A stretch of 39,965 bases of DNA, from IMG/VR virus record IMGVR_UViG_3300017963_000208, positions 67,601 to 107,565 of that record; one strand, written 5' to 3'. Each line of letters opens with the position of its first letter. Position 1 is the first letter of the stretch. The translations under genes and the position numbers were made by a program. Positions 3,007-39,514 of the stretch are shown in pieces. The notes beneath the pieces were generated by a model. That model made no database searches. It saw nothing but the letters and a program-made list of their open reading frames with translations, and was not told where the DNA came from. This DNA is from a virus.

Positions 3007-3151
3007 CTAAGTTCTCTCCAAATCTCTTCTTATAAACCTGGCGGGCGTACCCGTCAATCTCACAGCCCCCAACGCACTCAAACCCCACGCTCTCTAGGCC
3101 TAGCCTGAATCCTCCGATGCCAGCAAAAGCATCATAAAACGTAAGGGTCAT
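2339..3151 (-). CDS. C5-cytosine DNA methyltransferase, main (alpha-like) polypeptide
   Basis: Motif I FAGIGG, IV GFPCQ, VI LENV, VIII QRDRIW, X LGNSVVP; no recognisable motif IX in this frame. Confidence 0.92.
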   Translation of the reverse strand: MTLTFYDAFAGIGGFRLGLESVGFECVGGCEIDGYARQVYKKRFGENLDGDIKEVKDIKGADILCGGFPCQDISCAGKGGGLGGDRSGLWWELARLIEDCKPKWVLLENVPTLKKRGLKEILKFFAESGYTVEWQCLPASAFGAPHQRDRIWIVAYSHGEELRLKSGRGSRKNGQSQTQPTDNGEEELMAYSSCQLPYRAGKKWQRGRTKSTDSSKRIQSIGWWKSEPNVGRVASGVSSRVDRLKCLGNSVVPQVVGWIGERIKRAEEGK

Positions 3152-3393
3152 TATGTAAACCTCTTTACAGACTTCATGGTTTCTAAAACCTGAACTTTAA
3201 AGTAATCTTCATCTTCTAAAGCCTCTTTACTCCATAGTCTTGTGGCTACCTCATTTTCTCCATCAAACTGTACTGTTACTAAATACGCTTGTGATTCATA
3301 TTTGAATCCAAGAACAGTAAATCTAGCCCACCTATCTGGACCAGTTCCTAACATATTCAGAACTGTTCCTTTTGTATATTTAGGCTTTTCCAC
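3151..3393 (-). CDS. small SH3/KOW-like protein with shared C-terminal tag
   Basis: N-terminal PKYTKGTVL; ends VQVLETMKSVK. Confidence 0.65.
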   Translation of the reverse strand: MEKPKYTKGTVLNMLGTGPDRWARFTVLGFKYESQAYLVTVQFDGENEVATRLWSKEALEDEDYFKVQVLETMKSVKRFT

Positions 3394-3634
3394 TTTTCCT
3401 AGATCTCATAGTTTTTATGGTACACACTGAAAAGATAGTACTTTCTATATAACCAGCCGCAAACTTCTCAACTCCGCTATAGTCTCCCCTCTCTCCCATC
3501 ATTTCTACCTTATAGACGTACTCATCCTCTAGACACTCAAGTATATGAAAGTACTTACAAGGAGACCCATCAAGGGCGTGCTTAAACTCCAAAACAGTAC
3601 CTTTAGGATATTTTAACTTAAAACACGTTTTCAT
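3380..3634 (-). CDS. small SH3/KOW-like protein with shared C-terminal tag
   Basis: LKYPKGTVL; ends VCTIKTMRSRK. Confidence 0.65.
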   Translation of the reverse strand: MKTCFKLKYPKGTVLEFKHALDGSPCKYFHILECLEDEYVYKVEMMGERGDYSGVEKFAAGYIESTIFSVCTIKTMRSRKSGKA

Positions 3635-3905
3635 CTTTAATATTCTTCATAGTTTTTATTACGTCTACCGAACATCGTTCTTCTAGAAACTCTCTAGGAA
3701 CTTCCTCAACCTTTTTCTTTTCCTTTACCTGACCATTAAGTGTTTTCAGTATGTTAACTATGTAGTTCTCTCCAGCTTCGTCGAACGCCACAATTTCTAT
3801 AAGAATACAAAAGTCAATCAGGGTGGGCTTGTATCTCTGCCTAGTTACTAGATTTTCCAAAGGCATTTTGAGCACTTGTCCCGGTAAGTATTTGGGCTCT
3901 TTCAT
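3618..3905 (-). CDS. small SH3/KOW-like protein with shared C-terminal tag
   Basis: Start reassigned to MKEPKYLPGQVL (ATGA overlap with upstream gene); ends VDVIKTMKNIK. Confidence 0.65.
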   Translation of the reverse strand: MKEPKYLPGQVLKMPLENLVTRQRYKPTLIDFCILIEIVAFDEAGENYIVNILKTLNGQVKEKKKVEEVPREFLEERCSVDVIKTMKNIKDENVF

Positions 3906-4123
3906 GTTTTCCTGTTTTTCATGGTTCTTATTATGTTGGGCTTGAAAATCTCTTCCAAAGTTTCTTCGTTCCAGCCCCGTCTTACTGCCTCTCCCCAAAA
4001 AGTCCGGCACTTACACTTATAAATACCTCTGTGAGGCATAACTTCGTAGATTCTTACGTGCTGTATGTCATTGTCCCAACGTTTTTCTTTGGCTATGAAA
4101 CAGTCTCCTACTTTGTACCGCAT
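3902..4123 (-). CDS. small SH3/KOW-like protein with shared C-terminal tag
   Basis: RYKVGDCF; ends PNIIRTMKNRK. Confidence 0.65.
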   Translation of the reverse strand: MRYKVGDCFIAKEKRWDNDIQHVRIYEVMPHRGIYKCKCRTFWGEAVRRGWNEETLEEIFKPNIIRTMKNRKT

Positions 4124-4620
4124 TTCAATAACCTGATATACTTAGTTAAGTACTTGATTTTTATCTCATCTAGGTTTATCTCAAAATGCAGTTCAAAATT
4201 GAACTCCCCTATCCGGTGTATAGCGTTACTACCCAAGGTATGATGGTCAGCACAAAGAGGAATACAAGAGTAATCTGAGCCCTTAGTGCCCATTCCGCCC
4301 ACGTCCGTGTGGTGGGGATGAGAACCTTCTATGCCACACACGCAACAGGGCTGTGAACGGATGAACTCAAGATAATGGTCGTCCTTCTCTCTGGTCTTTT
4401 TCTTCTTGTAGACCCTGGACTCCCCTATGTCTACCTCTACCTTTTTGGGAAGGAAACGTTTATAATCAAACTCCTGTTCCTCTGGCTCAGGCATTTCAAC
4501 AGTCTCGTTCTTATACAAAAGATAGCACGTTTGACCACAAAAGTAGTGCAACCCATGCCTAAAGGTTTTGTGGGCCGCTACTACTTGTCCGCAGTATTTA
4601 CACCTTGTTTTCAGAGCCAT
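4108..4620 (-). CDS. DUF968-like / HNH-type zinc-binding protein with extra N-terminal Zn finger
   Basis: YLEFIRSQPCCVCG...HH...GMGTK..D...IPLC..HH...H; N-terminal CxxC...CxxxC; directly downstream of recA. Confidence 0.7.
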   Translation of the reverse strand: MALKTRCKYCGQVVAAHKTFRHGLHYFCGQTCYLLYKNETVEMPEPEEQEFDYKRFLPKKVEVDIGESRVYKKKKTREKDDHYLEFIRSQPCCVCGIEGSHPHHTDVGGMGTKGSDYSCIPLCADHHTLGSNAIHRIGEFNFELHFEINLDEIKIKYLTKYIRLLKCGTK

Positions 4621-5575
4621 TAAGCTCCTCCATCACTTGAGTTAACCACTCTTCGTTGTTGGCTAGAGTCTCACAAGCATTGTTTCTACCTTGACCCAAC
4701 TTCTCCCCTTTATAGGAATACCAAGCTCCTGCCTTGTCTACAATCTTGTTGCTTACGGCCAAGTCAAACAAATCACCAATAATATCAACACCTTTGCCAT
4801 AGAGTAAATTAAACTTGGCTAAAGTGCCAGGAGCTGACAATTTGTTCTTCTTAACAACTACCTTCATTTCGTGGCCTATAACACTATCACTATTCTTTAG
4901 CTGCTGTACTCGGCGGACATCCAACCGCATAGTGGCATAATATTTCAATGCATTACCACCAGTAGTAGTTTCTGGGTTACCAAACATAACTCCTATTTTC
5001 ATACGTAGTTGGTTAATCCAGATAAGAGAAGTGTTGGTCTCACTTAGGATAGAAGTGAGCTTCCTACAGGCTTGGGACATTAACCGTGCAGTCAAACCTA
5101 TATGAGATTGGCCCATATCACCTTCTATCTCTGCCTGGGGGGTTAAAGCAGCAATGGAATCCAAAACGATTACACTGACTTTTCCACTTTTAGCCAAATA
5201 CTCAATAATACCCAGAGCCTTTTCTGCCGTGTCTGGTTGAGAGATAAGTAACTCTTCTACATTAACACCGAGGATTTCTGCCAAACTTAGGTCTAAAGAG
5301 TGCTCTGTGTCCACGTAGGCTACCACGCCTCCCTGTTCTTGAGCCTGGGCTGCCACATAAAGAGCTAGGGTGGTTTTACCCGTAGACTCAGGCCCGAAAA
5401 TCTCAATCATACGCCCTCGGGGGATACCACCAATACCCAGAGCTTTATCTAAAGACATAATACCAGTGGGGATAACATCTACGTCGGTACGGGTATCTTC
5501 CCCATATAATAGAACAGAGCCTTCACCAAAATGCTTATTGGCAGCTTTCTGTAGGTCTTTTAAGTCCTTGCTCAT
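4598..5575 (-). CDS. recA: RecA recombinase
   Basis: GPESTGKT Walker A, SQPDT, ARLMSQA, INQLRMKIGVMFGNPETTTGGNALK. Confidence 0.98.
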   Translation of the reverse strand: MSKDLKDLQKAANKHFGEGSVLLYGEDTRTDVDVIPTGIMSLDKALGIGGIPRGRMIEIFGPESTGKTTLALYVAAQAQEQGGVVAYVDTEHSLDLSLAEILGVNVEELLISQPDTAEKALGIIEYLAKSGKVSVIVLDSIAALTPQAEIEGDMGQSHIGLTARLMSQACRKLTSILSETNTSLIWINQLRMKIGVMFGNPETTTGGNALKYYATMRLDVRRVQQLKNSDSVIGHEMKVVVKKNKLSAPGTLAKFNLLYGKGVDIIGDLFDLAVSNKIVDKAGAWYSYKGEKLGQGRNNACETLANNEEWLTQVMEELNGSENKV

Positions 5576-6764: not shown

Positions 6765-6773
6765 CTTCTCTCC

Positions 6774-7163: not shown

Positions 7164-7164
7164 A

Positions 7165-7767: not shown

Positions 7768-8047
7768 CCCAAAAGTCTTTAATTTCTTCCTCTGTAGCTT
7801 CCTTCGCTTTCTTCTTTTCTTCTCTCATTTTTTCCGCTAACTCAACTAACTTATCTTCTTCTGCTGCGGCTTCTTCTTCCGTTAGATGTAATTTGTCCTT
7901 GATCTCCTTTACATCATCCTGAACTTTCTTCTTCCTGAGAAGAGATTTGAGGTTTGCTATGGTATTCTGGTCCCGAAGAACCATGGCTACAAAGATAATA
8001 GCCAAACCAATCACCCCAATCCAAAAATACTCTTTAATTTTGGACAT
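7748..8047 (-). CDS. N-terminal TM plus coiled-coil protein (i-spanin-like candidate)
   Basis: One N-terminal TM followed by a charged helix. Confidence 0.55.
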   Translation of the reverse strand: MSKIKEYFWIGVIGLAIIFVAMVLRDQNTIANLKSLLRKKKVQDDVKEIKDKLHLTEEEAAAEEDKLVELAEKMREEKKKAKEATEEEIKDFWDGYFSG

Positions 8048-8780
8048 TGTATTTCCTCAATGGGTTAGTGACTACATTGCCGCCTTGCTCTTCCGGATTA
8101 AAGAAGAAAATGCCTCTACGCATGGACGGAAAAGGTTCGGCGGTGTAATAGAGTTCGTTGAGCACACCGTCTACGACTCCATATTTAGCTGCTTCTTCAG
8201 CCGTAAGCCACCAATTCTTTTTAGCCATATATTGGTAACTGTGAGTGGAAATACCCATTTGGTGAGCCACGTCTGCATCCACATTATCTAAGTATTTGGT
8301 AATAAACTGAACTACTTGGTAGATGCGTGCTGCTGAATCATATGGAATACTATATGAGGCCTCATGGAACATTACAGCCGCATGTTTGTGGATAAAGGTA
8401 CGATAGCAGAACTGAGAGAGGATCGCCGCCATAGAATACGCCTCACTCTCAATAGCACAATAAACTCTAGCGTCCAAGGCCTGTATAGTGTCTATCAGCT
8501 CCAGTCCATCTACCACAGAGCCACCCGGACTGTTGATGATAATGAATATGTCCTGGTGAGTCAACTCGTTCATTCCTTTAATAGCTGAAATAATTGGTGC
8601 AACACTGGCCGCAGTTATGGGACCTTTCAGTACCACCGTCCTCTCATTATTGATTTTGAGATTATAATTAATTACTTTCCCCGGCTTGTCTAGAGTAACC
8701 TTAGTCATATCCGAGGCCTGTACGTTGGTGGCTCCCAGAAGAAGAACCGCAGACAGAGTTCCCAATAATTTCTTTAGCAT
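8034..8780 (-). CDS. ClpP-like serine protease with N-terminal signal peptide
   Basis: INSPGGSV, YSMAA (Ser), MFHEAS (His), WLTAEEA..YG.VD; N-terminus MLKKLLGTLSAVLLLGATNVQA. Confidence 0.85.
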   Translation of the reverse strand: MLKKLLGTLSAVLLLGATNVQASDMTKVTLDKPGKVINYNLKINNERTVVLKGPITAASVAPIISAIKGMNELTHQDIFIIINSPGGSVVDGLELIDTIQALDARVYCAIESEAYSMAAILSQFCYRTFIHKHAAVMFHEASYSIPYDSAARIYQVVQFITKYLDNVDADVAHQMGISTHSYQYMAKKNWWLTAEEAAKYGVVDGVLNELYYTAEPFPSMRRGIFFFNPEEQGGNVVTNPLRKYNVQN

Positions 8781-9019
8781 TACTTCTTCTCCTTGCCATT
8801 GAGTTTCATATCACTATATTTACGCGCTGTGTAGGCAGCCACGGTCGGAGTAAGAATCGCAGCGTCAATGGCAGCTAGATGTTGAACAAAAGTAGAATTT
8901 CCGGTTAACCAGGCAGCCACGAAGCCAGCCACAGTCAAAATACCTGCCAAAATAAAGCCAGCTACGGCTAAACTAAGCATGGTGTCAGGTTTTTCAGTTC
9001 TTGGATGCTTTAACCACAT
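8780..9019 (-). CDS. small 2-TM membrane protein (holin-like candidate)
   Basis: Two hydrophobic helices and a basic C-terminus. Confidence 0.5.
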   Translation of the reverse strand: MWLKHPRTEKPDTMLSLAVAGFILAGILTVAGFVAAWLTGNSTFVQHLAAIDAAILTPTVAAYTARKYSDMKLNGKEKK

Positions 9020-9266
9020 TACGTAATTTCCTCCTTAGTTTTTTCATGTAACTGATGGGCTCCTCTTCCTCCATAGTTACGGTCACTTTTACTATTCTAA
9101 TTCTCTTAGGATTACATACAGCCTTTGCCTGTTCTTTTGTGGCATATATCCCGAATATCATACCACTGTGAAGATGGATCTCTTCTCCAGTTAAGAAATT
9201 CGGATACTCCCCTTCCTTAATGTAGAATTGAGGCATCCAGCCGTGTAGTTCCTTTTTCCAACCCAT
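8994..9266 (-). CDS. hypothetical protein with shared C-terminal tag
   Basis: Ends EEPISYMKKLRRK... Confidence 0.6.
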   Translation of the reverse strand: MGWKKELHGWMPQFYIKEGEYPNFLTGEEIHLHSGMIFGIYATKEQAKAVCNPKRIRIVKVTVTMEEEEPISYMKKLRRKLRNVVKASKN

Positions 9267-9880
9267 TACTTCAAGGCATCCTTATCCATCTTGAATGATT
9301 TACAATTATTTGGGTCTGCGGTAAACCACGCAAGGGCTAAACACAAGCTGTCGTACAAATCAGTAGGAGTAGCACGTTCCTTTTGAGTAATATTGGAAAC
9401 CAGTTTGTCTGGTATCCGTTTGGGGAACAACTTGTCTACATGCTTCTTTGCCGGAGCTTTCCACGCGGCACTACCAGCCTTGGTTCTATCCTTTTTGATA
9501 CCCAGGATAGACCGCCAGCTTTGGGGGAGCAGGGAATCAAAGGTTAGGGGCGGTTCCAGTTCGTGGCAAATAGATTTCACAGAGCCAGTCATCTCTGGAA
9601 TCACCAGTACCCCACACATTCTCTTCCTGTTGACCATATAACCTTCTGCCACTATACCTTCTATGCCATAACACACATAGGCAATGTTGGCAATAAACTT
9701 ATCCACATAGTTATATTTCTCTCCATGGTCCCATTTAGGATTGAACCAGAGAACCCCCGTCTTGTGGATGGTCATTTCCTTTTTGCCGATGTGCTGGCTA
9801 GCTACCGTCCAGCCACAGCAATTGGTGGACAGATCAAGAAATAGCAACTTGTTGTCCCCATAATTTTTAATATTACTCAT
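9266..9880 (-). CDS. RuvC-like Holliday junction resolvase (RNase H fold)
   Basis: LLFLDLSTNCCGW, IVAE, PQSWR, DLYDSLCLA give the RuvC-type acidic tetrad pattern. Confidence 0.75.
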   Translation of the reverse strand: MSNIKNYGDNKLLFLDLSTNCCGWTVASQHIGKKEMTIHKTGVLWFNPKWDHGEKYNYVDKFIANIAYVCYGIEGIVAEGYMVNRKRMCGVLVIPEMTGSVKSICHELEPPLTFDSLLPQSWRSILGIKKDRTKAGSAAWKAPAKKHVDKLFPKRIPDKLVSNITQKERATPTDLYDSLCLALAWFTADPNNCKSFKMDKDALK

Positions 9881-10139
9881 CAGATTCCTTTTTGTTTTTC
9901 ATATACCCAATGGTGGTGTGCCTGACCCTAAAGCGATTAATTTCTGAGGTACGTCCATGTGAATACAAAACCTCTTCCGTCCGTGTCTGTAGTTCTAGAC
10001 CAGCCTTATCCATCAAAGTCTGTAGAATTTCAGCAAATATGTTATCACAAGCCCCGGAAGGGTAGGACCTAGCAAGCTCCAGTAAATCTTGGCTTTTCCA
10101 ATCACCCTTCCAGTTACTTTTCGGTGTCTGTTTTTTCAT
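9873..10139 (-). CDS. hypothetical protein with shared C-terminal tag
   Basis: Ends HTTIGYMKNKK. Confidence 0.6.
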   Translation of the reverse strand: MKKQTPKSNWKGDWKSQDLLELARSYPSGACDNIFAEILQTLMDKAGLELQTRTEEVLYSHGRTSEINRFRVRHTTIGYMKNKKESDE

Positions 10140-11840: not shown

Positions 11841-12498
11841 AGAACATCCTTGCCTTATCGTTTAATTCTTCTAAGGTGCCATTATTTTCCACTACGTAAT
11901 CATACTCTGATTCTTCTCCGAGAGAGTTTTCAGAGGGGTGAGCGTCTAGCGATTCCTTACCCGGTCTAACAATTCTTACTAGAATGGCCTCAAACTCTTC
12001 CTTCAATCTGCGGCGCTCATTCTCAAACCTAGCATCTGTAATCACCCAATTCTCTGGAGAGTTGGTAATACGTTGGAATAATACATCTACGTGGTAGGTG
12101 TCTATCAGACGCCGGCAGATGTCAGTGCCCACAAACTGTAATATTTCTCTTGCTGTAAAGAGCTCGGTGGGCTTTCCTGTCTGCTTAATAGGTCTATGAA
12201 TATATTCCTCTTCTATCCGCCGACACTCCTCAGCAAGACCCGTCAGGTCGTGGGTGCGTCCCATCCATCTCCGGATCAGTAAAAAATGCTTGCTGGTGAA
12301 CCTACGAGGTACTGAAAGCCTCATCTTCTTACCTTCGGGAGTGTTAATCATATGTTCAGTGAGATTAAAGATACTTTTACACATCTCCTTGAGATTGTGG
12401 GCAAAAGAACCTTGTTGAAATCCCCGTTTGGTCAAGGAATTGGCAAACGCATCCTTACCCGCTTCTTTTTCTCCTGCAATAGCTATAACTTTCCTCAT
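11773..12498 (-). CDS. deoxynucleoside monophosphate kinase
   Basis: IAGEKEAGKD, SFA..LK, REILQFVGTD, ITDARFENE, HPSE. Confidence 0.88.
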   Translation of the reverse strand: MRKVIAIAGEKEAGKDAFANSLTKRGFQQGSFAHNLKEMCKSIFNLTEHMINTPEGKKMRLSVPRRFTSKHFLLIRRWMGRTHDLTGLAEECRRIEEEYIHRPIKQTGKPTELFTAREILQFVGTDICRRLIDTYHVDVLFQRITNSPENWVITDARFENERRRLKEEFEAILVRIVRPGKESLDAHPSENSLGEESEYDYVVENNGTLEELNDKARMFYEESVKKVPEAQRIIHGSESNQ

Positions 12499-12501
12499 AT
12501 G

Positions 12502-13239
12502 TTACCCACTGATAATTTTGTCATTTAATCGACACTTATAGTTTACTATCCTATGAATATTGTGGAAAAATAAACCATTAGGCTTCACTACAGCCGTAGC
12601 GAATCCCAAAGACCAGTTAGAAAAGTCCTTGATATAATCGGCTTTGTTTTTATCACCTAACCAGCCGGGGGTGAAAGCTACGTGAGCCTCACCCATTTCA
12701 TTCACTTTCAAGGCTTCCTCAATGGTGTGTACGTGGCCAAAACATACGGAGTGCTCATACTTATCTAACATTGCTCTAGATACGTTTTTACGAGCTATGG
12801 TCCCATGTACCACTACCAGCTTACCCAAGCGATGATGTTTACCATATGGATAGTATTTATAACCACGCTCTTTGAGTCCTAGTAGGGTCTGGGTATCCAC
12901 TAGACCAAACAATTCAGGAGCTTTGTTCTTGATAAAACTGTTCAGTCGTTCCTCATGGTTGCCTTCCATGAACACCTTCTCGGCTTTGGGAAACAGCTTA
13001 TCTATTCTGTCCAGCACCCGATTAGCCTCTTCTACTTCCTGCTTCAGAAATCTATCTCTCTTAGGGTCCTTATCGTACCTACTGATAGAGTAGTTATCAA
13101 TAAAATCCCCCAAGATGATTATGATATCTGGCTTGAACGCCCGTCCAGCCTTGAACACAAGTTCCAAAGCCTTTTGGTCGTGGTAGGGCACATGCACATC
13201 TGGGATAATTAATGCTTTCTTATCTTTTTTTCTGGACAT
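12502..13239 (-). CDS. calcineurin-like metallophosphoesterase
   Basis: DVH, GDFID, GNHE, HG, GHVH motifs. Confidence 0.9.
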   Translation of the reverse strand: MSRKKDKKALIIPDVHVPYHDQKALELVFKAGRAFKPDIIIILGDFIDNYSISRYDKDPKRDRFLKQEVEEANRVLDRIDKLFPKAEKVFMEGNHEERLNSFIKNKAPELFGLVDTQTLLGLKERGYKYYPYGKHHRLGKLVVVHGTIARKNVSRAMLDKYEHSVCFGHVHTIEEALKVNEMGEAHVAFTPGWLGDKNKADYIKDFSNWSLGFATAVVKPNGLFFHNIHRIVNYKCRLNDKIISG

Positions 13240-13250
13240 TTATCTTTCCT

Positions 13251-15407
13251 TTACTTAGTTTCTGACAAAGCCTTGGCAATCTTAGGTTCAGCCACCAAGG
13301 GAACACTTAGCTTATAAGTGTTTTCCATCTTGTCTTTCATTATTTGAGCCACTTCCTGCGTATCTTCCTCCATACACTCACTTATTATCTCATCATGTAT
13401 TTGCCCCAGGATGTAGGCTTTCAGACCTCTTTTTTTGAACTCCTTGTTAATGGCTATCATCGCCCGGTTAGTTATAGAGGCTGCCAAAGACTGAATAGGA
13501 AAATTTACTCCGAGATTTAGCAACTTGTTTAAAATTCTCTTGTCTGCTCTGGCGCGAGAAGTCTTTAAACGGTCAACACCATCCATTCTTCTCTTTCGTC
13601 CTGTCTCGTTAGCAATTTCTCCCTTTTTCAGGATACATCCATGACATCTAAGAACATACTCTTTTAGATTAGGGTATTTATTCCAGTAATGCTGCAATTT
13701 CTTTTGAGCTTCTTTTACATCACAGTCTAAAATCTTGGCTAGTTTCCACTGCTTCATACCATACGCAATCCCCAAACCAATCTCTTTAGCGTCTTGTCTC
13801 TTTTGGGGATGCTTCTTCTTGGCCTCATTTGCATCACATCTCAGTTCAAAAAAGTCTATGGCTACAGTTCCATAGAAATCTAATCCCTTAACAAAAGCCT
13901 CAATAAGACGCTTCTCTCTGCTCATATGGGCAAAACATCTGGGCTCCAGTTGTGAATAGTCAGCTCCCACCAAAGCCATGTTTTTTCTGGCGATTATACC
14001 CCTTTTTATTCTTGTGTCTTCCCTGGGCAAGTTTTGGTAGTTGGGATTCTTGCAAGCAAATCGTCCCGACTCTGTACCAAACTGCATCCAATCCGGATGT
14101 ATGACCCCATCTACATTCAATTCCAAAGCTGCTTTTACGTAAGTGTTCAACAACTTATTGGCCTTACGCATCTGTACAATCTTACCCACAAAAGCATATT
14201 TGCTTTCAAATATCGCCAACACATCTTCATCTACCTGATAATTACCAGCCTCAGTTACCTTGATAGGCTTCTCTTTGAGGTGGGTAAACAAAATCTCCCC
14301 CAACTGTGGGTTACTATCTAAATTAATCAGGTATCTCTGATCCGCTTTTTTAGCCATCTGTATCCTGGCAGCATGAATTTTATTGCCTTCCAGAGCTATA
14401 AATTCCTCGTCTGTGAGCTGTCCAAGCTTCCATTTCAATAGATTACTCTCTGGATGATCTTCGAGAGTCTGTTCTATGACCTTCTTAGCAAAAGTAGGAG
14501 ACCCTTTCTTGTTGTAAATAATAGGAAATCCCTCATCCACAAACATCTGTTTGAAGAGATTTCCTCCACTCTTCATGGGTGCTTTATCATTGAGTATGGC
14601 CTCTTCCATACCGTGATACATCTTAGAGTAATCTTTCTTGAGGTCGGCGTGAATCTCATCTTCAATAGACTGGGCTTCTTGTTTCAACTCATCATGTAAT
14701 TGTTGGTAGTACTCTAAATCTACTTGCATGCCTCTAGAGTGCATGGTAAGTACAATTTCCACCAGGGGCATGACTTCTTCATCATAAAAGAACTTGTATA
14801 ACCCCTCTTGGTTAAGTAAGTCCTCAAATTTATAAAACAACTGAAGGGTCATATCTGCATCTGAAGCAGCATACTTACCTAGAATGATGGGATCGGCTTT
14901 GCCAAAGTCTTTCTCGTCCTTATTCCATTTACCACCATTCTTTTTCACCGACTCTTTAAGGTCATTCTGAGGGGTATCCCACCCTTCCCCTAAATACTTG
15001 ACTGCACAAGATTTCAGCTTGTGGGGCTTCTTCTCATCTAATGTGTGCTTCATCAAGATGGTATCTGCATGAAGGCGAGGAAGACAGTCTACTCCCATTG
15101 TATTCCTAAGAACCGAAATGTCAAATACACTATTGTGCATGACAATTTTTTTCTCAGGACTTTCTAGTAAGCCTATTAACTTAGCCCGGACCTCGAACAA
15201 CTCCTCATCGTTCAAGCCCTGGGTTGTTATATAGAACGCTTCGCCCGCCCTCACACAGAGAGAAATACCCAGGAGTTCGCAGGTGAAGCTATCTAAGCCG
15301 GTAGTCTCAGTATCTACCGCTATTATACCTCTAATTGGGGTAAGATAGTCAAAGACTTTTCTGCGCTTATCTTGGGTATCTGCTATATAATATTGTGAAT
15401 TAATCAT
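13251..15407 (-). CDS. polA: family A DNA polymerase with 3'-5' exonuclease domain
   Basis: Exo DTET, HNSVFD, YAASD; polymerase motif A DYSQLE, motif B R..AK...LG..YG, motif C HDE. Confidence 0.96.
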   Translation of the reverse strand: MINSQYYIADTQDKRRKVFDYLTPIRGIIAVDTETTGLDSFTCELLGISLCVRAGEAFYITTQGLNDEELFEVRAKLIGLLESPEKKIVMHNSVFDISVLRNTMGVDCLPRLHADTILMKHTLDEKKPHKLKSCAVKYLGEGWDTPQNDLKESVKKNGGKWNKDEKDFGKADPIILGKYAASDADMTLQLFYKFEDLLNQEGLYKFFYDEEVMPLVEIVLTMHSRGMQVDLEYYQQLHDELKQEAQSIEDEIHADLKKDYSKMYHGMEEAILNDKAPMKSGGNLFKQMFVDEGFPIIYNKKGSPTFAKKVIEQTLEDHPESNLLKWKLGQLTDEEFIALEGNKIHAARIQMAKKADQRYLINLDSNPQLGEILFTHLKEKPIKVTEAGNYQVDEDVLAIFESKYAFVGKIVQMRKANKLLNTYVKAALELNVDGVIHPDWMQFGTESGRFACKNPNYQNLPREDTRIKRGIIARKNMALVGADYSQLEPRCFAHMSREKRLIEAFVKGLDFYGTVAIDFFELRCDANEAKKKHPQKRQDAKEIGLGIAYGMKQWKLAKILDCDVKEAQKKLQHYWNKYPNLKEYVLRCHGCILKKGEIANETGRKRRMDGVDRLKTSRARADKRILNKLLNLGVNFPIQSLAASITNRAMIAINKEFKKRGLKAYILGQIHDEIISECMEEDTQEVAQIMKDKMENTYKLSVPLVAEPKIAKALSETK

Positions 15408-20556: not shown

Positions 20557-20594
20557 CCTCTACTAATAGAGGACTACTTACCATTTGGTAAATA
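20557..20594 (-). promoter_or_regulatory. phage promoter/operator, copy A
   Basis: Minus strand TATTTACCAAATGGTAAGTAG-N8-TAGTAGAGG, identical to copy B outside N8; contains palindrome TTACCA-N2-TGGTAA. Confidence 0.75.
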
Positions 20595-20598
20595 GTTT

Positions 20599-21027
20599 TT
20601 ATTGTTTTTTCAATCTTTTTTTGAGAACCTTCATTATTTCTATAATGGGCAGATTGGGTACGATATTCTCCTCAGAGTCCATGCCTTCAAAATAATTGTT
20701 TACTATATACCCTTCCCTTATATCTTGAATGACAGCACCTCTTATCTTACTGCCTATAATAGCTATATTTTTGCAATTTCTTACCAAAAGACCATTGCTA
20801 ACAAGGCTGCCCCCTAAATTATACCCCTTTCCTCCGACCAAGAATAAAGTTCCCTGCACATTACAGTCCTTTAATTCTACGCCGTGTCCTTCCCAAACTA
20901 CCACATCTGATAAGAAGAGACATTCATTAAAAAAGGCTCTCTCACAATCTACCACAAATATGGGGGTTTTAAAAGTCTGGTTGTGGTGAACTATGCAGCT
21001 TTCTTCTACAAATGTGGTGGAACTCAT
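20599..21027 (-). CDS. small beta-helix-like protein with tag-like C-terminus
   Basis: Repetitive beta-strand pattern; ends LPIIEIMKVLKKR. Confidence 0.55.
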   Translation of the reverse strand: MSSTTFVEESCIVHHNQTFKTPIFVVDCERAFFNECLFLSDVVVWEGHGVELKDCNVQGTLFLVGGKGYNLGGSLVSNGLLVRNCKNIAIIGSKIRGAVIQDIREGYIVNNYFEGMDSEENIVPNLPIIEIMKVLKKRLKKQ

Positions 21028-21031: not shown

Positions 21032-21406
21032 TTACCTCTTAATGACTCTTCCGGCTAAAGATTTTATCTTGTGCCAAATCTGGGGATTACTTTCAAAAAA
21101 TCTCCGCAACTCTGTCATATCCAACTCTCGAATCTGATTCTCCAATTCCTTCCATTCATGGAATTTCTTGTGTTGGAGTTTAATCACCTTCATAGTTTTG
21201 GTTATGTCCATTTTCCAACTGGTGACAAATGCCGACGCAGTAAGTATGTAGTCTCTGCTGTCAGGGTAGCAGTAAAGAGCGCAATAACTATTCCTAAATT
21301 TACTTCCCCGATGAGACAATACAAAGTACGGAGCGGAACTAGTAAGAGTTCTACCACTACGATACGTTCTGGTCACATAACATACTGAAAAAATAGGAGG
21401 TTTCAT
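21032..21406 (-). CDS. hypothetical protein with internal copy of the shared tag
   Basis: MDITKTMKVIK followed by a helical tail. Confidence 0.55.
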   Translation of the reverse strand: MKPPIFSVCYVTRTYRSGRTLTSSAPYFVLSHRGSKFRNSYCALYCYPDSRDYILTASAFVTSWKMDITKTMKVIKLQHKKFHEWKELENQIRELDMTELRRFFESNPQIWHKIKSLAGRVIKR

Positions 21407-22998: not shown

Positions 22999-23260
22999 AT
23001 ACATCTCCATTACTCTGTATTTTACTGTTCTCATAAGGAGCCACTACTCTACGGTAAAACTCCAGCTTGGCTCCCTCTAACGCTCCCATAATATCGTTAA
23101 TTTTTTGGTAATCTAGAGGGGCTTTACTATGACAAGCATAATGCTCAATTATCCGAGTTACAAGATAGTTTAGCTCCCCCGGATTCCCCGGAGATTTGCG
23201 CCACAAGGTATCAACTATTTCGTCTAACCATTTTCTACGTTCTTTTTTTATGTATGGCAT
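22991..23260 (-). CDS. conserved phage protein (DUF6899-like)
   Basis: MPYI...R, GELNY..T, GALE.AK.EFYRR...PYE..KI..NGD. Confidence 0.7.
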   Translation of the reverse strand: MPYIKKERRKWLDEIVDTLWRKSPGNPGELNYLVTRIIEHYACHSKAPLDYQKINDIMGALEGAKLEFYRRVVAPYENSKIQSNGDVYE

Positions 23261-23610
23261 TTTTTATTCCTCTTCATATAGTGAAGTGTATCGGGCTGCA
23301 AAGTGCCCTCTTTCACAAAATTGTTGATAATGTCCTTCGATATATAAAATAGGTCGTCACTTTCTGATATGTAGGTCTCTAGTACCTGTTGTACGTGAGA
23401 ATCTCCCCCTCCTCTAGGGAAGTTTAAAAAAGGCAAGCCCTTAGCACCACCCACCCCTGTGTTAAAAATTTCTGGTGAGATTATATGTGCATACCCTTGC
23501 GGACAGGCCCACCTAAAAACACTGGTAGATACTCCATAGAACTTTGTGGTTTCGGCGCATATCTCAACAGAACACCCACAAGTGGCTTTATACCTCACCC
23601 TTCTTGCCAA
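23248..23610 (-). CDS. hypothetical protein with shared C-terminal tag
   Basis: TTG start with GGAGGG; ends PDTLHYMKRNKK. Confidence 0.6.
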   Translation of the reverse strand: MARRVRYKATCGCSVEICAETTKFYGVSTSVFRWACPQGYAHIISPEIFNTGVGGAKGLPFLNFPRGGGDSHVQQVLETYISESDDLFYISKDIINNFVKEGTLQPDTLHYMKRNKKCHT

Positions 23611-26937: not shown

Positions 26938-26975
26938 CCTCTACTATTGGCCGCCTACTTACCATTTGGTAAATA
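26938..26975 (-). promoter_or_regulatory. phage promoter/operator, copy B
   Basis: Same TATTTACCAAATGGTAAGTAG-N8-TAGTAGAGG as 20557..20594; upstream of the RNR unit. Confidence 0.75.
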
Positions 26976-26990
26976 AAAACTATAACTTTT

Positions 26991-29024: not shown

Positions 29025-29256
29025 AACCTTCCTCCAAATAACTGTCAGGCTGCGAACGTATATAGTTTACTAAGGTATCGACGTTTTCAACCCCTACCAA
29101 GATTTCAGCCAAAGATTCTGTCTTGGTGTGTTGGGCTAACAAGTCCTCAAACTCTTCTTCCGACATTTTATTAATACTATCAACTGCTTCCGCTACAGCT
29201 TCTGGTAAACTAAGCCTTATTCCTAGCTTTCTTTTTATTTTTCTTATTAGTCGCAT
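28978..29256 (-). CDS. hypothetical protein
   Basis: Basic N-terminus and acidic body; coupled overlaps. Confidence 0.5.
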   Translation of the reverse strand: MRLIRKIKRKLGIRLSLPEAVAEAVDSINKMSEEEFEDLLAQHTKTESLAEILVGVENVDTLVNYIRSQPDSYLEEGYAEKVQEDAKDNHDS

Positions 29257-29542
29257 TTTTACGTTCCTTCATTTCTAAGATTACATCTTCTCTTAAACGT
29301 TCCAGGGGTATCCTTGCCCATTTCTTACTTGTCCAGCTTGTATCAAGCCGCATAAGGAAACTCCCAAAGCTTTTCCACTTATAAGGTTCTACATAGTAAT
29401 ACTCCGTGTCACCTGAGAAATCCCGTCTTTTGACTTTAACGGGCAAACCATTCAATCTCTGGTACAGAGAGCGGTCCTCCGTCAGATTTAATCTAACAAT
29501 CTGTCCTGCTCTAAACTTGAATTTTAGTGGATTATCAATCAT
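29210..29542 (-). CDS. SH3/KOW-like protein with shared C-terminal tag
   Basis: FKFRAGQIVR; ends REDVILEMKERK. Confidence 0.6.
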   Translation of the reverse strand: MIDNPLKFKFRAGQIVRLNLTEDRSLYQRLNGLPVKVKRRDFSGDTEYYYVEPYKWKSFGSFLMRLDTSWTSKKWARIPLERLREDVILEMKERKNATNKKNKKKARNKA

Positions 29543-29735
29543 CTTCTAACTCTATTATATGAAATCCAAAAGGGTCCTCTTCGTCGCTGCTAGCGACTAT
29601 CTTTTTCTTGGGCTTTTCTTTAGCCCCTGTCCCCTCGCACTGAGGACACCACCTTGAGCGCCCCGAACCAAAAATAGGCTGAGTTTGCCCACCGCACTTA
29701 TTACATATTTCATTCGTGTCGTTTATCTTGCCCAT
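29535..29735 (-). CDS. small zinc-ribbon protein
   Basis: CNKC...CPQC. Confidence 0.6.
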   Translation of the reverse strand: MGKINDTNEICNKCGGQTQPIFGSGRSRWCPQCEGTGAKEKPKKKIVASSDEEDPFGFHIIELEDD

Positions 29736-30033
29736 ACTTCATCTGCTTAATTTGTTCTACCAGGTCTCTTACAAGAACCGAGTGGTGAAAACTTATCCAC
29801 TTGCCTCTGGTTTTGACCACGTAAGGGTGGATATACTGACCTGGAAAAGGCTCAAAGTAAATGTAACCTCCACTATAGGCAGCACGTCGCTTGACTACTC
29901 CCTTCAAACCTATACATGCCTTGTATGCCTCTTGAACTGAGTCTACGCAGCAATCCCAATAGGGACCGCCAACAACTCTAACTACATCTCCTACTTTAAA
30001 TCTTGTCTGTCCATGATATTTCAAAACTGACAT
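29710..30033 (-). CDS. SH3/KOW-like protein with variant C-terminal tag
   Basis: RFKVGDVVRV; ends RDLVEQIKQMK. Confidence 0.6.
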   Translation of the reverse strand: MSVLKYHGQTRFKVGDVVRVVGGPYWDCCVDSVQEAYKACIGLKGVVKRRAAYSGGYIYFEPFPGQYIHPYVVKTRGKWISFHHSVLVRDLVEQIKQMKYGQDKRHE

Positions 30034-34797: not shown

Positions 34798-35386
34798 TGA
34801 TAATCCTCTCTATCTCTGAGATGTGTACGGGCGTGTAATCCCAATTCTCCACAGATACATTTATCATATTTTCCTGAATTTTCCAGGTGCTATGGTTGTG
34901 CCCGTGGATTAGCCATAAACCTTCGTTCTTGGGCCTAGACGCTATGAACATATTCTTATACTTCTCGCCTCTGTTCTTGAGGAACTCCAAATTCTCTGTA
35001 ACCAGGTAAGGGTAATGGCAGAGAAGCACTTTCTGGCCAGCAATGGTTAGTTCTAATCTGTCATAAACTTCCGTAAATCCTATGTCTCTCATTCTTGTAG
35101 CACTACCGTCATGGTTGCCTTTGATTAGGAACTTAACTCCGTTTAGTTGATCGAGTAGGTTCTTCTCCCAACTCTTCCCACACATGGCGAAATCGCCCAA
35201 GTGGTAGATAATATCTCCCGGTTTAACCACTCGATTCCAATTCTCAATCATGGTTTTATTCATCTCATAAACATTCTCAAAAGGACGGTCCTCATATTTC
35301 ATCACGTTTTTGTGATAGAAATGGGTATCCGCTATAAACCAGATATCTCTCTGGGTTCCTTCCGTGAAGTCATAATTATCTTGCAT
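34781..35386 (-). CDS. metallophosphoesterase (AQ1575-like)
   Basis: ADTHF.H, HLGD, GNHD, CHYP, HGH.H. Confidence 0.9.
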   Translation of the reverse strand: MQDNYDFTEGTQRDIWFIADTHFYHKNVMKYEDRPFENVYEMNKTMIENWNRVVKPGDIIYHLGDFAMCGKSWEKNLLDQLNGVKFLIKGNHDGSATRMRDIGFTEVYDRLELTIAGQKVLLCHYPYLVTENLEFLKNRGEKYKNMFIASRPKNEGLWLIHGHNHSTWKIQENMINVSVENWDYTPVHISEIERIINGQSD

Positions 35387-35660
35387 TTTTTCGAGCTTTC
35401 ATAGTTTTTAGTATGTCTAAACGTAAATACCGGATATCCGCTACCGAGGAAGTACCGTTCTTATGCTTGACTAAATAAAGACCGTCCCGGTTCCAAGGTG
35501 CCCATTGTGGATCTTCCTTAGTTAGTTTTTTAATAATTTCTACCTCATCTTCTCGCCAGGTGCAATTAATAACCAGATCATCCTGCACTTCTCCTTTTTG
35601 AGAAATGTCTAAATACGATAAGACGCCTCTATCTCCTGTTTTCAATTTAGGCTTTTTCAT
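35376..35660 (-). CDS. SH3/KOW-like protein with shared C-terminal tag
   Basis: KPKLKTGD; ends RLDILKTMKARK. Confidence 0.65.
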   Translation of the reverse strand: MKKPKLKTGDRGVLSYLDISQKGEVQDDLVINCTWREDEVEIIKKLTKEDPQWAPWNRDGLYLVKHKNGTSSVADIRYLRLDILKTMKARKNAR

Positions 35661-35886
35661 TCTTTCCACGTTTCATGTACTTTAAAGTTTCCAATCTCAT
35701 ATTTTGTTCAGCAGCATAAAATACATCCACCTCATCAACTAGTATTCTATAACCATATTGGGGAGTATCAGATATATAGTCTTTTGAGTATGCTATTTCT
35801 ACTCCAATTATGTGTCCAGTATAGCTATCTCCTGCATGACAAATAAAAGTTACTACCTCCCCTATTTGAAACTTAGGCTGTTTCAT
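35647..35886 (-). CDS. SH3/KOW-like protein with shared C-terminal tag
   Basis: Start reassigned to MKQPKFQIGEVV; ends RLETLKYMKRGK. Confidence 0.65.
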   Translation of the reverse strand: MKQPKFQIGEVVTFICHAGDSYTGHIIGVEIAYSKDYISDTPQYGYRILVDEVDVFYAAEQNMRLETLKYMKRGKNEKA

Positions 35887-37373: not shown

Positions 37374-37489
37374 TAATTGTCCTTGTTGCGGATTCTTGTG
37401 TCTTGAACCGAATAGTAACATAGGCACCAAATAGCAAAACTTCCAAAAGCTAGTACGCCTAAAATAACACATGCTGTAGGCCAACCCAT
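37373..37489 (-). CDS. 38-aa membrane peptide (below ORF-track cutoff)
   Basis: MGWPTACVILGVLAFGSFAIWCLCYYSVQDTRIRNKDN; TAATG coupling on both sides; GGAG upstream. Confidence 0.55.
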   Translation of the reverse strand: MGWPTACVILGVLAFGSFAIWCLCYYSVQDTRIRNKDN

Positions 37490-37698
37490 TACTTACTCTC
37501 CTTCTGTCTCTTCATATAACTGATAGTGTCTAATTCCCACAATCTTGGTGAAATAAATCCACTCCACATATCTCCGTCCCAGTACATATCGTGGGTTGCT
37601 ATAACTTTATTACCCTTAACCCAGGTCACAACCCCTTTAAGAACCTGACCATCTTTTAGTTTTCGTTCTATCTTATCTCCAACCTTAAACTTCGCCAT
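37489..37698 (-). CDS. SH3/KOW-like protein with shared C-terminal tag
   Basis: KFKVGDKI; ends ELDTISYMKRQK. Confidence 0.65.
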   Translation of the reverse strand: MAKFKVGDKIERKLKDGQVLKGVVTWVKGNKVIATHDMYWDGDMWSGFISPRLWELDTISYMKRQKESK

Positions 37699-37906
37699 TA
37701 TCCTTCCCTACCTGCATGTACTCTATTATATTTAAGTACCTACGCCCCTCACATTGAGGGCACACTCTTGTTTCAATATAATTAACCGTAATGGGGCCTA
37801 GAGCTTGATGCAGATAGTCCTCTCCGCAAATAACATTTTCTACTGGAATTTGTACGTCTATTGTACCTGAACCGTTACAAAATTCGCATTTATATAGCTC
37901 GGCCAT
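37685..37906 (-). CDS. DnaJ-type zinc-finger small protein with tag-like C-terminus
   Basis: CxxCxGxG...CxxCxGxR; ends YLNIIEYMQVGK. Confidence 0.6.
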   Translation of the reverse strand: MAELYKCEFCNGSGTIDVQIPVENVICGEDYLHQALGPITVNYIETRVCPQCEGRRYLNIIEYMQVGKDNGEV

Positions 37907-38103
37907 TACTTAAAAATCACTTTCAGGCCAACTATGGCCCCAATAATAAGAACAAAAAGGGCTAGAGGAATCCACAGGGGGCATAGGACCCACCACCAAG
38001 ACCAGGTAATCTTACCCAGTAACTTGAGCGTGATGAACACCAAAGCCAATAGCCCTGGAAATCCAATGTTCAATTTAGCTTCTGCTTTTCCTGACTGACT
38101 CAT
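37906..38103 (-). CDS. small phage membrane protein
   Basis: LKL.G.I.WSWWWV..PLW motif; GGGAGG upstream. Confidence 0.7.
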   Translation of the reverse strand: MSQSGKAEAKLNIGFPGLLALVFITLKLLGKITWSWWWVLCPLWIPLALFVLIIGAIVGLKVIFK

Positions 38104-38111
38104 TGTTGCCT

Positions 38112-38148
38112 CCCTACTATTATCCTAACGTCTATACATCCGTAAACA
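38112..38148 (-). promoter_or_regulatory. putative promoter, copy C (core only)
   Basis: Minus strand TTTAC-N22-TAGTAG with the same spacing as copies A and B, directly before an RBS; lacks the palindrome. Confidence 0.55.
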
Positions 38149-38308
38149 CTAACTATCTAATCTATGGAATTGCTTTAACAATTCTAACTATACTCCGAAA
38201 GGTACAAGCAATTCTTTATTAGCACTACCATATCTAGGTTATTGTTTTATACTACATAATGCTAGTTATAATTGCTATAGCACTATATAGTATTATATAA
38301 TAAGAATA

Positions 38309-38611
38309 TTATATAGTCTCCTTTTTCTTCTTCATATACTCTAGTGGATAAATTTTAAACTCACCTTCTTTAGGCATTTCTGTAAGAACGGCCCAGTTTA
38401 GTCCGGCGTCATCCCAAAAACATACCCTCAAGTCCGGTAAGAGCCATCCAAAAGCCTGTGGCATTATGTTTATCACAGGAGAGTATTCATGGCTATAGTT
38501 TTTTACATTTTTAACACTGGACAGAGTAGTGGTAGAAATTCGTACCCCATAAGTATTACAGTAGTAATCCATCTCCTCAACGGATTTCTGTAACAATTTA
38601 CTCAGCTTCAC
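38309..38611 (-). CDS. hypothetical protein with shared C-terminal tag
   Basis: Ends IYPLEYMKKKK. Confidence 0.6.
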   Translation of the reverse strand: MKLSKLLQKSVEEMDYYCNTYGVRISTTTLSSVKNVKNYSHEYSPVINIMPQAFGWLLPDLRVCFWDDAGLNWAVLTEMPKEGEFKIYPLEYMKKKKETI

Positions 38612-38855
38612 GTTCTTGCTCCATTGTTTTTATTGTATCTAACGTAATGCTTTCTTCTGCTACTTCAGCTATAAACTCCCTACCAGCCTCTTTGTCAAAA
38701 TAATTAACAAGATACATTGGAAATTCCTCAACGCCATAATCGGTATGATAGAATCTTCTTACCACTTCTCCCACCTGAGTTACAACCTTCTTGCATCCCC
38801 AATCAAGTGACCGAAAGTATACGATATCTCCCACTCTATACTTAAATACACTCAT
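38598..38855 (-). CDS. SH3/KOW-like protein with shared C-terminal tag
   Basis: FKYRVGDIV; ends TLDTIKTMEQER. Confidence 0.65.
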   Translation of the reverse strand: MSVFKYRVGDIVYFRSLDWGCKKVVTQVGEVVRRFYHTDYGVEEFPMYLVNYFDKEAGREFIAEVAEESITLDTIKTMEQEREAE

Positions 38856-39147
38856 CCTTTTTACGGCCCTTCATAGATTCGATTGTATTGACCACAGGGA
38901 TTTTTCCGTAACTGGGGTGAATTTCCCTGTGAAACCTAGAATATTCTTGGAAATAAAAGTTACCCACAACCTCACTTCTGTGGGCTGTTTCACAATGCTT
39001 AGTCAGCTCAAGCTCAACCATGATTCTAGAAGATTCGGGGTGGTGAATATCCAGATCAGCAAAAATATCTTTGACTCGGATTGTACAACCACAGGTAAGG
39101 TCAAAAGCGACCCCAACTAACTTGTCATTATCCCCCGGTCTTTTCAT
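38842..39147 (-). CDS. hypothetical protein with shared C-terminal tag
   Basis: LTCGC...C..H; ends VVNTIESMKGRKK. Confidence 0.6.
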   Translation of the reverse strand: MKRPGDNDKLVGVAFDLTCGCTIRVKDIFADLDIHHPESSRIMVELELTKHCETAHRSEVVGNFYFQEYSRFHREIHPSYGKIPVVNTIESMKGRKKDECI

Positions 39148-39514
39148 TCTGTGCCTCTAGTTCTTTCTTTTTAAGTTCAGCTAACTCTTTCAGTTCTTCC
39201 TTCCGCTTGCGCTTGATTCGCAGGATTCCATCGGTAAAGCTCTCACGCAGTTTCATGGTAGCAATCACATCCACTTCTAAATACCTGGTATCAAACTCTC
39301 TAGAACGATGTAGATGAAATACTTTAGTATCATCAGAAAAATTAAAGAAGGCTACTTCAGCGATATAATAGGTTTCTTGGCCCTCATGGTAATCTTTAAT
39401 TTCCCGACTGCCATGTACCATCACAGGAATACCGTTTAATTCAGCGAGGTTATGGTCATCGGGGTAAGAGATTCTAGCAATAGTCCGTTGTTCTATATTC
39501 TTTATTTCATTCAT
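39128..39514 (-). CDS. hypothetical protein with tag followed by a coiled-coil tail
   Basis: EVDVIATMKLR, then a K/E-rich helix. Confidence 0.6.
   Translation of the reverse strand: MNEIKNIEQRTIARISYPDDHNLAELNGIPVMVHGSREIKDYHEGQETYYIAEVAFFNFSDDTKVFHLHRSREFDTRYLEVDVIATMKLRESFTDGILRIKRKRKEELKELAELKKKELEAQNEKTGG

What the first reader, a model, noticed from the sequence alone, without database searches (positions are those of the whole stretch)
3151..39514. About 19 unrelated small proteins share one C-terminal peptide tag: a candidate modular phage targeting or adaptor system
Seen: the following motif recurs at or near the C-terminus of small ORFs: VQVLETMKSVK (3151), VCTIKTMRSRK (3380), VDVIKTMKNIK (3618), PNIIRTMKNRK (3902), EEPISYMKKLR (8994), HTTIGYMKNKK (9873), LPIIEIMKVLK (20599), MDITKTMKVIK (21032), PDTLHYMKRNK (23248), EDVILEMKERK (29210), RDLVEQIKQMK (29710, variant), LDILKTMKARK (35376), LETLKYMKRGK (35647), LDTISYMKRQK (37489), LNIIEYMQVGK (37685), IYPLEYMKKKK (38309), LDTIKTMEQER (38598), VNTIESMKGRK (38842), VDVIATMKLRE (39128). 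The consensus is about h-[D/N/E]-[T/I/V/P]-[I/L]-x-[T/Y]-M-K-x-[K/R]-K, a short amphipathic helix with a near-invariant Met. I did not see it at the end of any recognisable enzyme in the window. The carriers appear to differ in fold (SH3-like, DnaJ Zn finger, beta-helix-like, CxC proteins), so whole-gene paralogy does not explain it. Inference: it is a portable docking signal for one shared partner. Options include a capsid-loading signal for injected proteins, a handle for a phage or host hub protein, or an adaptor tail delivering variable targets to a protease (two ClpP-like genes lie in this window). I do not recognise the motif as a described one.
Basis: partly seen in the sequence, partly recalled or inferred. 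Interest (0 to 1): 0.9.

Follow-up and report, generated by a model that had tools for sequence, protein, structure and literature searches.

The report
Shared tail tag on phage mini-proteins
About a fifth of the genes of this uncultured phage encode small proteins of several unrelated shapes that end in the same short helix; related phages use their own genome-wide versions of it, so it looks like an address label whose reader is still unknown.

Summary
Observation confirmed. Selection acts on the protein: codon choice in the motif equals genome usage. The other 13 do not match that family; they include a beta-helix and a zinc finger.

Relatives found through the capsid protein carry genome-wide flavours: Leu replaces Met in one sister phage, and the outgroup uses L-Y-G or A-I-Y endings. 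Orthologous tails fit their own genome's flavour in 27 of 36 cases. One complete, nested relative has no tag.

The phage ClpP idea fails: a complete tagged relative has no ClpP, and the untagged one has both. No reader was identified. A single shared partner is likely (about 0.8); procapsid loading (0.35) narrowly leads a host-hub adaptor role (0.27).

The scan noted this tag before in another window of this genome (e1-5358609), and similar but different tags in other phages. I found no paper describing it.

The parts
3151..3393 (-). 80-aa SH3-like carrier; tag at 3163-3195
3380..3634 (-). 84-aa probable SH3-like carrier (weak body score); tag at 3395-3427; tagged orthologue in G001
3618..3905 (-). 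95-aa probable SH3-like carrier (likely start 3905); tag at 3636-3668
3902..4123 (-). 73-aa probable SH3-like carrier; tag at 3908-3940
8994..9266 (-). 90-aa carrier that does not match the SH3 family; tag at 9033-9065; G001 orthologue has body 32/66 and tag 9/11 identical
9873..10139 (-). 88-aa carrier that does not match the SH3 family; tag at 9888-9920; G001 orthologue has body 21/60 and tag core 5/6 identical
20599..21027 (-). 142-aa right-handed beta-helix (residues 1-123) followed by the tag at 20620-20652
   Evidence: TM 0.74-0.75 to beta-helix models
21032..21406 (-). 124-aa carrier with an internal tag at 21179-21211, followed by a 48-residue extension
23248..23610 (-). up to 120-aa Cys-x-Cys carrier; tag at 23263-23295
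29210..29542 (-). 110-aa SH3-like carrier; tag at 29258-29290
29710..30033 (-). 107-aa SH3-like protein with a weak variant tag (Ile at the anchor) at 29737-29769
   Evidence: (3.8 bits leave-one-out)
35376..35660 (-). 94-aa SH3-like carrier; tag at 35388-35420; body homologous to genome gene 12845
35647..35886 (-). 79-aa SH3-like carrier (likely start 35886); tag at 35662-35694
37489..37698 (-). 69-aa SH3/Tudor/KOW-like barrel with the tag as helix 58-68; tag at 37501-37533
   Evidence: (pLDDT 81)
37685..37906 (-). 73-aa DnaJ-type zinc finger (two CxxCxG repeats); tag at 37703-37735
38309..38611 (-). 100-aa carrier that does not match the SH3 family; tag at 38321-38353
38598..38855 (-). 85-aa SH3-like carrier; tag at 38610-38642
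38842..39147 (-). 101-aa Cys-x-Cys carrier; tag at 38860-38892; its homologue in untagged G002 has an alignable but non-scoring tail
39128..39514 (-). 128-aa carrier with an internal tag at 39242-39274, followed by a 37-residue charged extension

Best explanation
The motif is a short amphipathic docking helix: an N-cap Asp/Asn, then hydrophobic Ile, Tyr/Thr and Met, then basic residues. It is appended to about 36 small soluble proteins so that one multivalent partner handles them as a class. Shown: the motif, its protein-level selection, its presence on several folds, and genome-wide flavours in relatives. Inferred (about 0.8): one shared partner reads it. Inferred, and the step I commit to (about 0.35): the partner is the inside of the assembling head. 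The tagged proteins would be loaded before DNA packaging and delivered with the genome as a fast-changing set of counter-defence or host-takeover proteins, as the T4 capsid targeting sequence does for internal proteins, but at the C-terminus and on ten times more clients.
For: For a shared reader: same-codon rate in the motif 0.437 versus 0.433 expected. Lys/Arg at +1 and +4 is kept in 7 of 7 carriers whose tag does not overlap the next gene's start region. The tag sits on an SH3-like barrel, a beta-helix and a zinc finger. The Met-trained profile retrieves mostly Leu-anchored tails in G004, and unseeded EM finds both consensuses. The cross-scoring matrix splits tagged relatives into two non-overlapping classes. 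Orthologue tails fit their own genome in 27 of 36 cases, with large margins between G005 and G011. One gene keeps a 95%-identical body with a replaced tail. For the head in particular: all carriers are 66-142 aa and none has a transmembrane segment (0/31 versus 15/77), which fits passage through a portal as described for T4 IPI (PMC9026906). A multivalent surface explains how 30-40 clients share one tag. Tag charge runs from +1.8 to -1.75 among phages with 63-75% identical capsid proteins, easier for a fast-evolving phage reader than for one conserved host pocket (inference). The L-Y-G flavour matches the C-termini of two head-region proteins of phage phiV10 (12.8 and 16.0 bits).
Against: The clade's own putative scaffold (the gene before the capsid gene) ends in a different helix that is alike in tagged and untagged phages and scores at most 3.1 bits with its own genome's tag profile. 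All head genes are kept in untagged G002/G003. The phiV10 capsid protein is not detectably related (1.7 bits), and this genome's own flavour does not match the phiV10 tails. Carrier bodies are not basic (net charge 0.008 per residue), unlike T4 internal proteins. No carrier lies in the structural module, although the T4 analogy does not require it. No virion proteome exists.
Confidence: 0.35

Rival explanations
1. Adaptor library: the variable domain (SH3/Tudor-like, zinc finger, beta-helix) binds a host target, and the helix recruits one host hub, such as an AAA+ unfoldase/protease or RNA polymerase. This would be a phage counterpart of F-box proteins. Flavours would track the host lineage, and a host switch would make the whole set useless at once.
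For: Architecture of a binding-type barrel plus a constant terminal helix. Carriers lie only in non-structural regions (Fisher p=0.0004). The nested G002/G003 lineage lacks the tag and most SH3-like genes while keeping the head genes. Phage adaptors for host ClpCP exist (SPO1 Gp53, PMC6873191).
Against: The host is unknown, so nothing could be tested. Tag charge reverses between related phages, which would need quite different hosts. No resemblance to a described adaptor tail was found (own knowledge, not a test).
Confidence: 0.27
2. No outside reader: the helix is a structural or self-pairing part of an expanded SH3-like family, and it spread to a few other genes by recombination.
For: 23 of about 36 carriers are one SH3-like family, and every such barrel in this genome is tagged. 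Tail replacement and a chimeric gene are seen in the sister strain. G011 shows excess identical codons (0.535 versus 0.394). Over all G000-G001/G020 orthologues the tag as a whole is no better conserved than the body (0.73 versus 0.71; core positions 0.85).
Against: 13 carriers do not match the family, and they include a beta-helix and a zinc finger. SH3-like homologues in G002/G003 lack the tag. There is no DNA-level homogenisation in G000, G004 or G005. Orthologues adopt their own genome's flavour.
Confidence: 0.12
3. Degron: the tail marks the carriers themselves for a host protease, so that this set of early proteins is short-lived.
For: C-terminal position; in G011 and G017 the tag ends at a fixed place, with a median of 0 residues after the Tyr-x ending.
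Against: In this genome 1-19 residues follow the motif, and 37-48 in two carriers; C-terminal degrons are usually end-anchored (established knowledge).
Confidence: 0.08
4. The reader is the phage's GP88-family protein (PF17338, three conserved Cys, radical-SAM-like), which binds or modifies the tagged proteins.
For: It is the only family found on both sides of the tagged clade and missing from both untagged genomes, apart from a 46-aa tail-operon gene. In this genome it lies at 9069-9800, between the two tagged clusters.
Against: The loss is a single event. G000's GP88 is closer to those of the L-Y-G phages (34-41%) than to that of G004 (24%), which has the sister tag. Outside the clade, GP88 phages show no shared tail (four cultured or annotated regions; G022 and G043), and a 96%-complete phage with another shared tail has no GP88.
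Confidence: 0.07
5. Membrane anchor: a basic amphipathic helix that holds the proteins on the inner membrane.
For: Helical, net charge +1.8 in this genome.
Against: Mean hydrophobicity -0.30 and moment 0.24 are low. Lipids would not select Met in one genome and Leu in the next. Several flavours are acidic.
Confidence: 0.05
6. Adaptor tail for the two ClpP-like proteins encoded in this window.
For: Both genes match PF00574 and lie next to carriers 8994 and 9873.
Against: Complete, tagged G004 has no ClpP, and complete, untagged G002 has both. One of the two has an N-terminal hydrophobic leader.
Confidence: 0.02

Closest known systems
Capsid targeting sequence (CTS) of T4 internal proteins IPI/IPII/IPIII (PMC9026906)
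   Same: A peptide of about 10 residues shared by small, mutually unrelated, dispensable proteins whose set varies between related phages.
   Different: The CTS is N-terminal, is cut off by the prohead protease and sits on about three basic proteins per genome. Here the tag is C-terminal, helical, on about 36 neutral proteins, with no sequence likeness; packaging is not shown.
AAA+ protease adaptors with docking tails (SspB, HspQ; phage SPO1 Gp53 on ClpC, PMC6873191)
   Same: A small binding domain plus a short docking segment; HspQ also has an SH3-like barrel (own knowledge; one carrier gave only a weak YccV-like hit, E 0.025).
   Different: Those are single proteins, not a genome-wide library; no motif likeness; the phage's own ClpPs are excluded as readers.
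Encapsulin cargo-loading peptides and microcompartment encapsulation helices (own knowledge)
   Same: Short terminal peptides or helices that load unrelated cargo into a protein shell.
   Different: They are bacterial, sit on a few enzymes, and differ in sequence.
C-terminal A-A-E-x-L-Y-G ending of phiV10 p09 (gene before the capsid gene) and p13
   Same: Scores 12.8 and 16.0 bits with the tag profile of relative G005.
   Different: No match to this genome's Met-Lys flavour; the capsid proteins are not detectably related; epsilon15's equivalents do not match; its role in capsid binding is itself an inference from an earlier scan note.
T4 sliding-clamp-binding C-termini (gp43, gp55, gp33) and T7 acidic tails (own knowledge and scan notes)
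   Same: Several phage proteins share a C-terminal peptide for one hub.
   Different: Their clients are replication and transcription proteins; here no enzyme carries the tag and no clamp gene was recognised.

Membership tests
T4-type capsid targeting sequence | N-terminal propeptide of 10-19 residues | tested here: not met
   The tag is C-terminal or near it; definition from PMC9026906
T4-type capsid targeting sequence | Shared by small unrelated proteins that vary between related phages | tested here: met
T4-type capsid targeting sequence | Clients are basic proteins | tested here: not met
   Net charge of bodies 0.008 per residue, the same as other small proteins
T4-type capsid targeting sequence | Clients are packaged in the head and the peptide is removed by the prohead protease | not testable with these tools
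   Needs virions; no cultured member
Scaffold-mimic capsid docking tail | Tag resembles and co-varies with the phage's own scaffold C-terminus | tested here: not met
   Own-genome scores at most 3.1 bits for 9 of 11 profiles' scaffolds and negative for most; scaffold end alike in untagged phages
Adaptor of the phage-encoded ClpP | ClpP present wherever the tag is, and lost with it | tested here: not met
   G004 tagged with no ClpP; G002 untagged with two
Adaptor of a host AAA+ protease or other hub | Tail binds the host hub | not testable with these tools
   Host unknown; MAG labels of related contigs disagree
C-terminal degron | Fixed position at the extreme C-terminus | tested here: inconclusive
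   Not met in this genome (1-48 residues follow); nearly met in G011 and G017
Single paralogous protein family | All carriers share one fold | tested here: not met
   23 SH3-like and 13 not matching, among them a beta-helix and a zinc finger
DNA or RNA element (repeat, promoter, translational coupling) | Conserved at synonymous positions or tied to the next start codon | tested here: not met
   Same-codon rate 0.437 versus 0.433; motif intact in 7 of 7 carriers 73-232 nt from the next start
GP88 enzyme-substrate module | Two-way linkage of GP88 and tags, and matching divergence | tested here: inconclusive
   Linked inside the clade (one loss event); not linked outside it; divergence does not follow tag flavour

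The most novel reading that the evidence does not exclude
A widespread clade of uncultured ~110-kb tailed phages devotes up to a quarter of its genes to a rapidly exchanged library of small binding domains, each carrying a genome-specific C-terminal helix that plugs into one receptor: either a generic loading code for co-injected counter-defence proteins, or a ubiquitin-free 'F-box' system that redirects a host machine to dozens of targets.
Probability: 0.45. Interest if true: 0.85.

Novelty: new variant of a known kind. Interest (0 to 1): 0.62.

Why it matters
If one partner reads the tag, 30-40 otherwise anonymous genes per genome become one functional class, recognisable from sequence alone and testable with a single peptide bait. 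That addresses the long-standing question of what the many tiny phage ORFans do. It would give an enriched list of candidate anti-defence proteins and a 10-residue handle for loading or targeting proteins. The natural flavours (Met-Lys, Leu-Lys, L-Y-G, A-I-Y) and the untagged lineage provide built-in specificity controls.

Tried and rejected
Co-folding GP88 with the 69-aa carrier, both as alignments: no answer, score 0.00, neither for nor against binding.

No RNA holder was listed for the window, so expression was not examined.

Single-sequence fold of carrier 38842 was unusable (pLDDT 43).

Pfam and PHROG scans of carriers gave only weak or zinc-finger hits. A homologue search of genome gene 2705 returned only itself. 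Direct locus searches with a carrier, the primase-helicase and GP88 found nothing. The profile search of 1.8 billion proteins returned this phage's own or near-identical proteins, two further small barrels with tag-like ends (P0140, P0149) and long repeat proteins.

RNR-linked loci of other viruses show no cluster of this tag.

Rejected: phage ClpP as reader; mimicry of the own scaffold or of the gene before the large terminase; a DNA-level or Shine-Dalgarno origin (overlap with the next gene's ribosome site may still add to the basic residues at +2/+3); an internal start at the Met (no Met in other flavours).

Host not determined: the three MAG labels conflict and the contigs look like whole phages. 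The first module tree timed out and was redone with FastTree.

Five literature searches aimed at such a tag or at GP88 found no description; the library lacks most subscription journals.
Full report
Setting. The window is the last 40 kb of a 107,565-bp virus record, 94% complete. It has a terminase and a capsid protein distantly related to YuA-like phages (about 34% identity). No cultured relative is close, and the host is unknown. The window holds the replication and metabolism arm, almost all on the minus strand.

The observation. All 19 peptides are present in frame. The anchor Met is 5-19 residues from the end in 16 proteins and internal in 21032 and 39128; 29710 is a weak Ile variant. A profile trained only on the window was applied to the 108 proteins outside it. 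It found 12 with a hit of at least 10 bits in the last 25 residues, against 0.13 (maximum 2) in 500 shuffles. With weaker but clear cases there are 17 carriers outside the window, in two clusters (genome 2289-7596, minus strand; 12364-14392, plus strand), so about 36 of roughly 183 genes. The consensus is h-[D/N]-[T/V/I/P]-[I/L]-x-[Y/T]-M-K-x-x-[K/R]. No protein over 150 aa, no small structural-module protein and no membrane protein carries it. Other sequencing runs hold the same DNA.

Protein, not DNA. Where two carriers share a degenerate residue they use the same codon 43.7% of the time; genome usage predicts 43.3%. Many tags end just where the next gene starts (13 of 34 at 16-17 nt from the Met codon). 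However, the seven carriers far from any start keep Lys/Arg at +1 and +4.

The bodies. One carrier folds as an SH3/Tudor/KOW-like barrel with the tag as a terminal helix. A tag-free HMM recovers 19 of 23 such bodies leave-one-out, hits no untagged small protein of this genome, and misses the other 13 carriers. Among those 13, gene 20599 is a right-handed beta-helix up to residue 123 with the tag after it, and 37685 is a DnaJ-type zinc finger. So two thirds are one old family and one third are not. SH3-like homologues in untagged relatives lack the tag, so the barrel does not need it.

Relatives. The capsid protein gave 51 loci; I fetched 18 records whole or nearly so. The near-identical species (G001, G020) has the same tag on a partly different gene set. 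G004 (75% capsid identity, complete) has about 26 carriers of a sister flavour, with Leu at the anchor and often Leu at +3. The outgroup (63-66%) uses A-x-x-V-L-Y-G (G005, 31 carriers; G016, 35), E-L-x-x-A-I-Y-x at the very end (G011, 32) and T-E-x-x-x-L-L-Y (G017, 43), with weaker versions in G006, G007, G009, G010 and G012. The two classes do not cross-score. Carrier counts rest on seeded profiles; the unseeded tests confirm the tags in G000, G004, G005, G007, G009, G011, G012, G016 and G017, and are marginal for G006 and G010.

Loss and switching. G002 (complete) and G003 (83%) show no shared tail by any method. Tail-gene and replication-gene trees nest them inside tagged lineages (support 0.999 and 0.87; the head-gene tree is weak), which points to one loss. 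The G002 homologue of gene 38842 aligns through the tag position but no longer scores. Among outgroup orthologues defined by body alone, 27 of 36 tails fit their own genome's profile better, most clearly between G005 and G011; several of the pairs are between genomes of similar flavour and are uninformative. One gene keeps a 95%-identical body between G000 and G020 while its tail is replaced by one resembling another carrier's. Whether the two classes are homologous or two independent solutions is not shown.

Phage ClpP is excluded by presence pattern. The putative scaffold and the gene before the terminase end in helices that neither match nor follow the tags. GP88 (PF17338) is the one substantial family shared across the tagged genomes and absent from G002/G003. 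That is one event, its divergence does not follow tag flavour, and outside the clade GP88 and shared tails do not go together. The L-Y-G flavour matches two phiV10 head-region C-termini, a lead taken from note e1-501022, but the Met-Lys flavour does not.

Mechanism. A short helix under protein-level selection, on several folds, uniform within a genome and different between genomes, is best explained by one shared binding pocket (inference, about 0.8). I put procapsid loading and co-delivery first (0.35). The clients are small and soluble, a many-copy surface tolerates dozens of clients, the flavours vary too much in charge for one conserved host pocket, and T4 gives a precedent (PMC9026906). 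A host-hub adaptor library is close behind (0.27; precedent PMC6873191), since it explains wholesale loss with head genes intact. Neither is shown.

Membership and novelty. It may work like a capsid targeting sequence, but it is not one: wrong terminus, no sequence likeness, neutral clients. It is not a scaffold mimic by sequence, not a partner of the phage ClpPs, and not a single gene family. The principle of a shared tail read by one partner is known. A C-terminal helix on roughly 10-26% of a phage's genes, switching flavour across a clade, was not found in the papers I could search. The scan had noted the same tag in this genome (e1-5358609) and other tags in other phages; those notes are not independent support.

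Verdict. Real, strongly non-random and undescribed as far as searched; reader and function open. New variant of a known kind; interest 0.62.

Noticed in passing
L247-L250 (G024, IMGVR_UViG_3300028654_000014; also L009): An unrelated 82-kb, 30% G+C virus carries its own shared tail, h-h-x-Y-[E/D/K] at the very C-terminus, on at least 17 of 85 small proteins; it has no GP88.
   Followed up: partly
window 20557-20618 and 26938-26999: A 62-nt intergenic repeat (74% alike) with a near-palindromic core, each copy downstream of a gene on the minus strand; possible promoter or operator (noted earlier as e1-5676256).
   Followed up: no
window 2329-3151: The C5 methyltransferase ORF (2339-3151) is overlapped by a second 225-codon open frame on the same strand (2329-3006) (noted earlier as e1-5676255).
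   Followed up: no
window 8034-8780: ClpP-like protein with an N-terminal hydrophobic leader; this gene and the second ClpP-like gene are kept in most of the clade but both are absent from complete G004.
   Followed up: partly
L228:3848-4153 (G020): Chimeric gene joining parts of two neighbouring SH3-like carriers of G000 (12364 and 12648) through short deletions; real shuffling or an assembly artefact.
   Followed up: partly
G001 54898-58002 and G002 54569-56482: The recA gene, whole in this window (4598-5575), is split into three and two pieces in these relatives, as by introns or inserted endonuclease genes.
   Followed up: no
L151:12462-15836 (G004): A 362-aa gene that reads like a MoxR-type AAA+ ATPase and a 481-aa gene downstream sit among tagged genes; no match to them was seen in G000. 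Family not tested.
   Followed up: no
L151:1876-3222 (G004): A 448-aa protein begins with a T-N-S-S-S peptide like the N-terminal tag of other scan notes (e1-126111, e1-2303833).
   Followed up: no
L002:7229-8596 (capsid gene): The 455-aa capsid protein has two insertions relative to YuA gp56 (about residues 132-180 and 276-385); candidate extra domains.
   Followed up: no
L001:647-1738 and 2045-2233: Two genes of unknown function shared only by G000 and G004, the two lineages with the Met/Leu-Lys flavour; no usable family or fold.
   Followed up: partly
L001:16638-17000 and orthologues: The gene before the large terminase ends, in the outgroup, in an I-L-H-G helix loosely like the L-Y-G tag, but it does not follow tag flavour.
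   Followed up: yes
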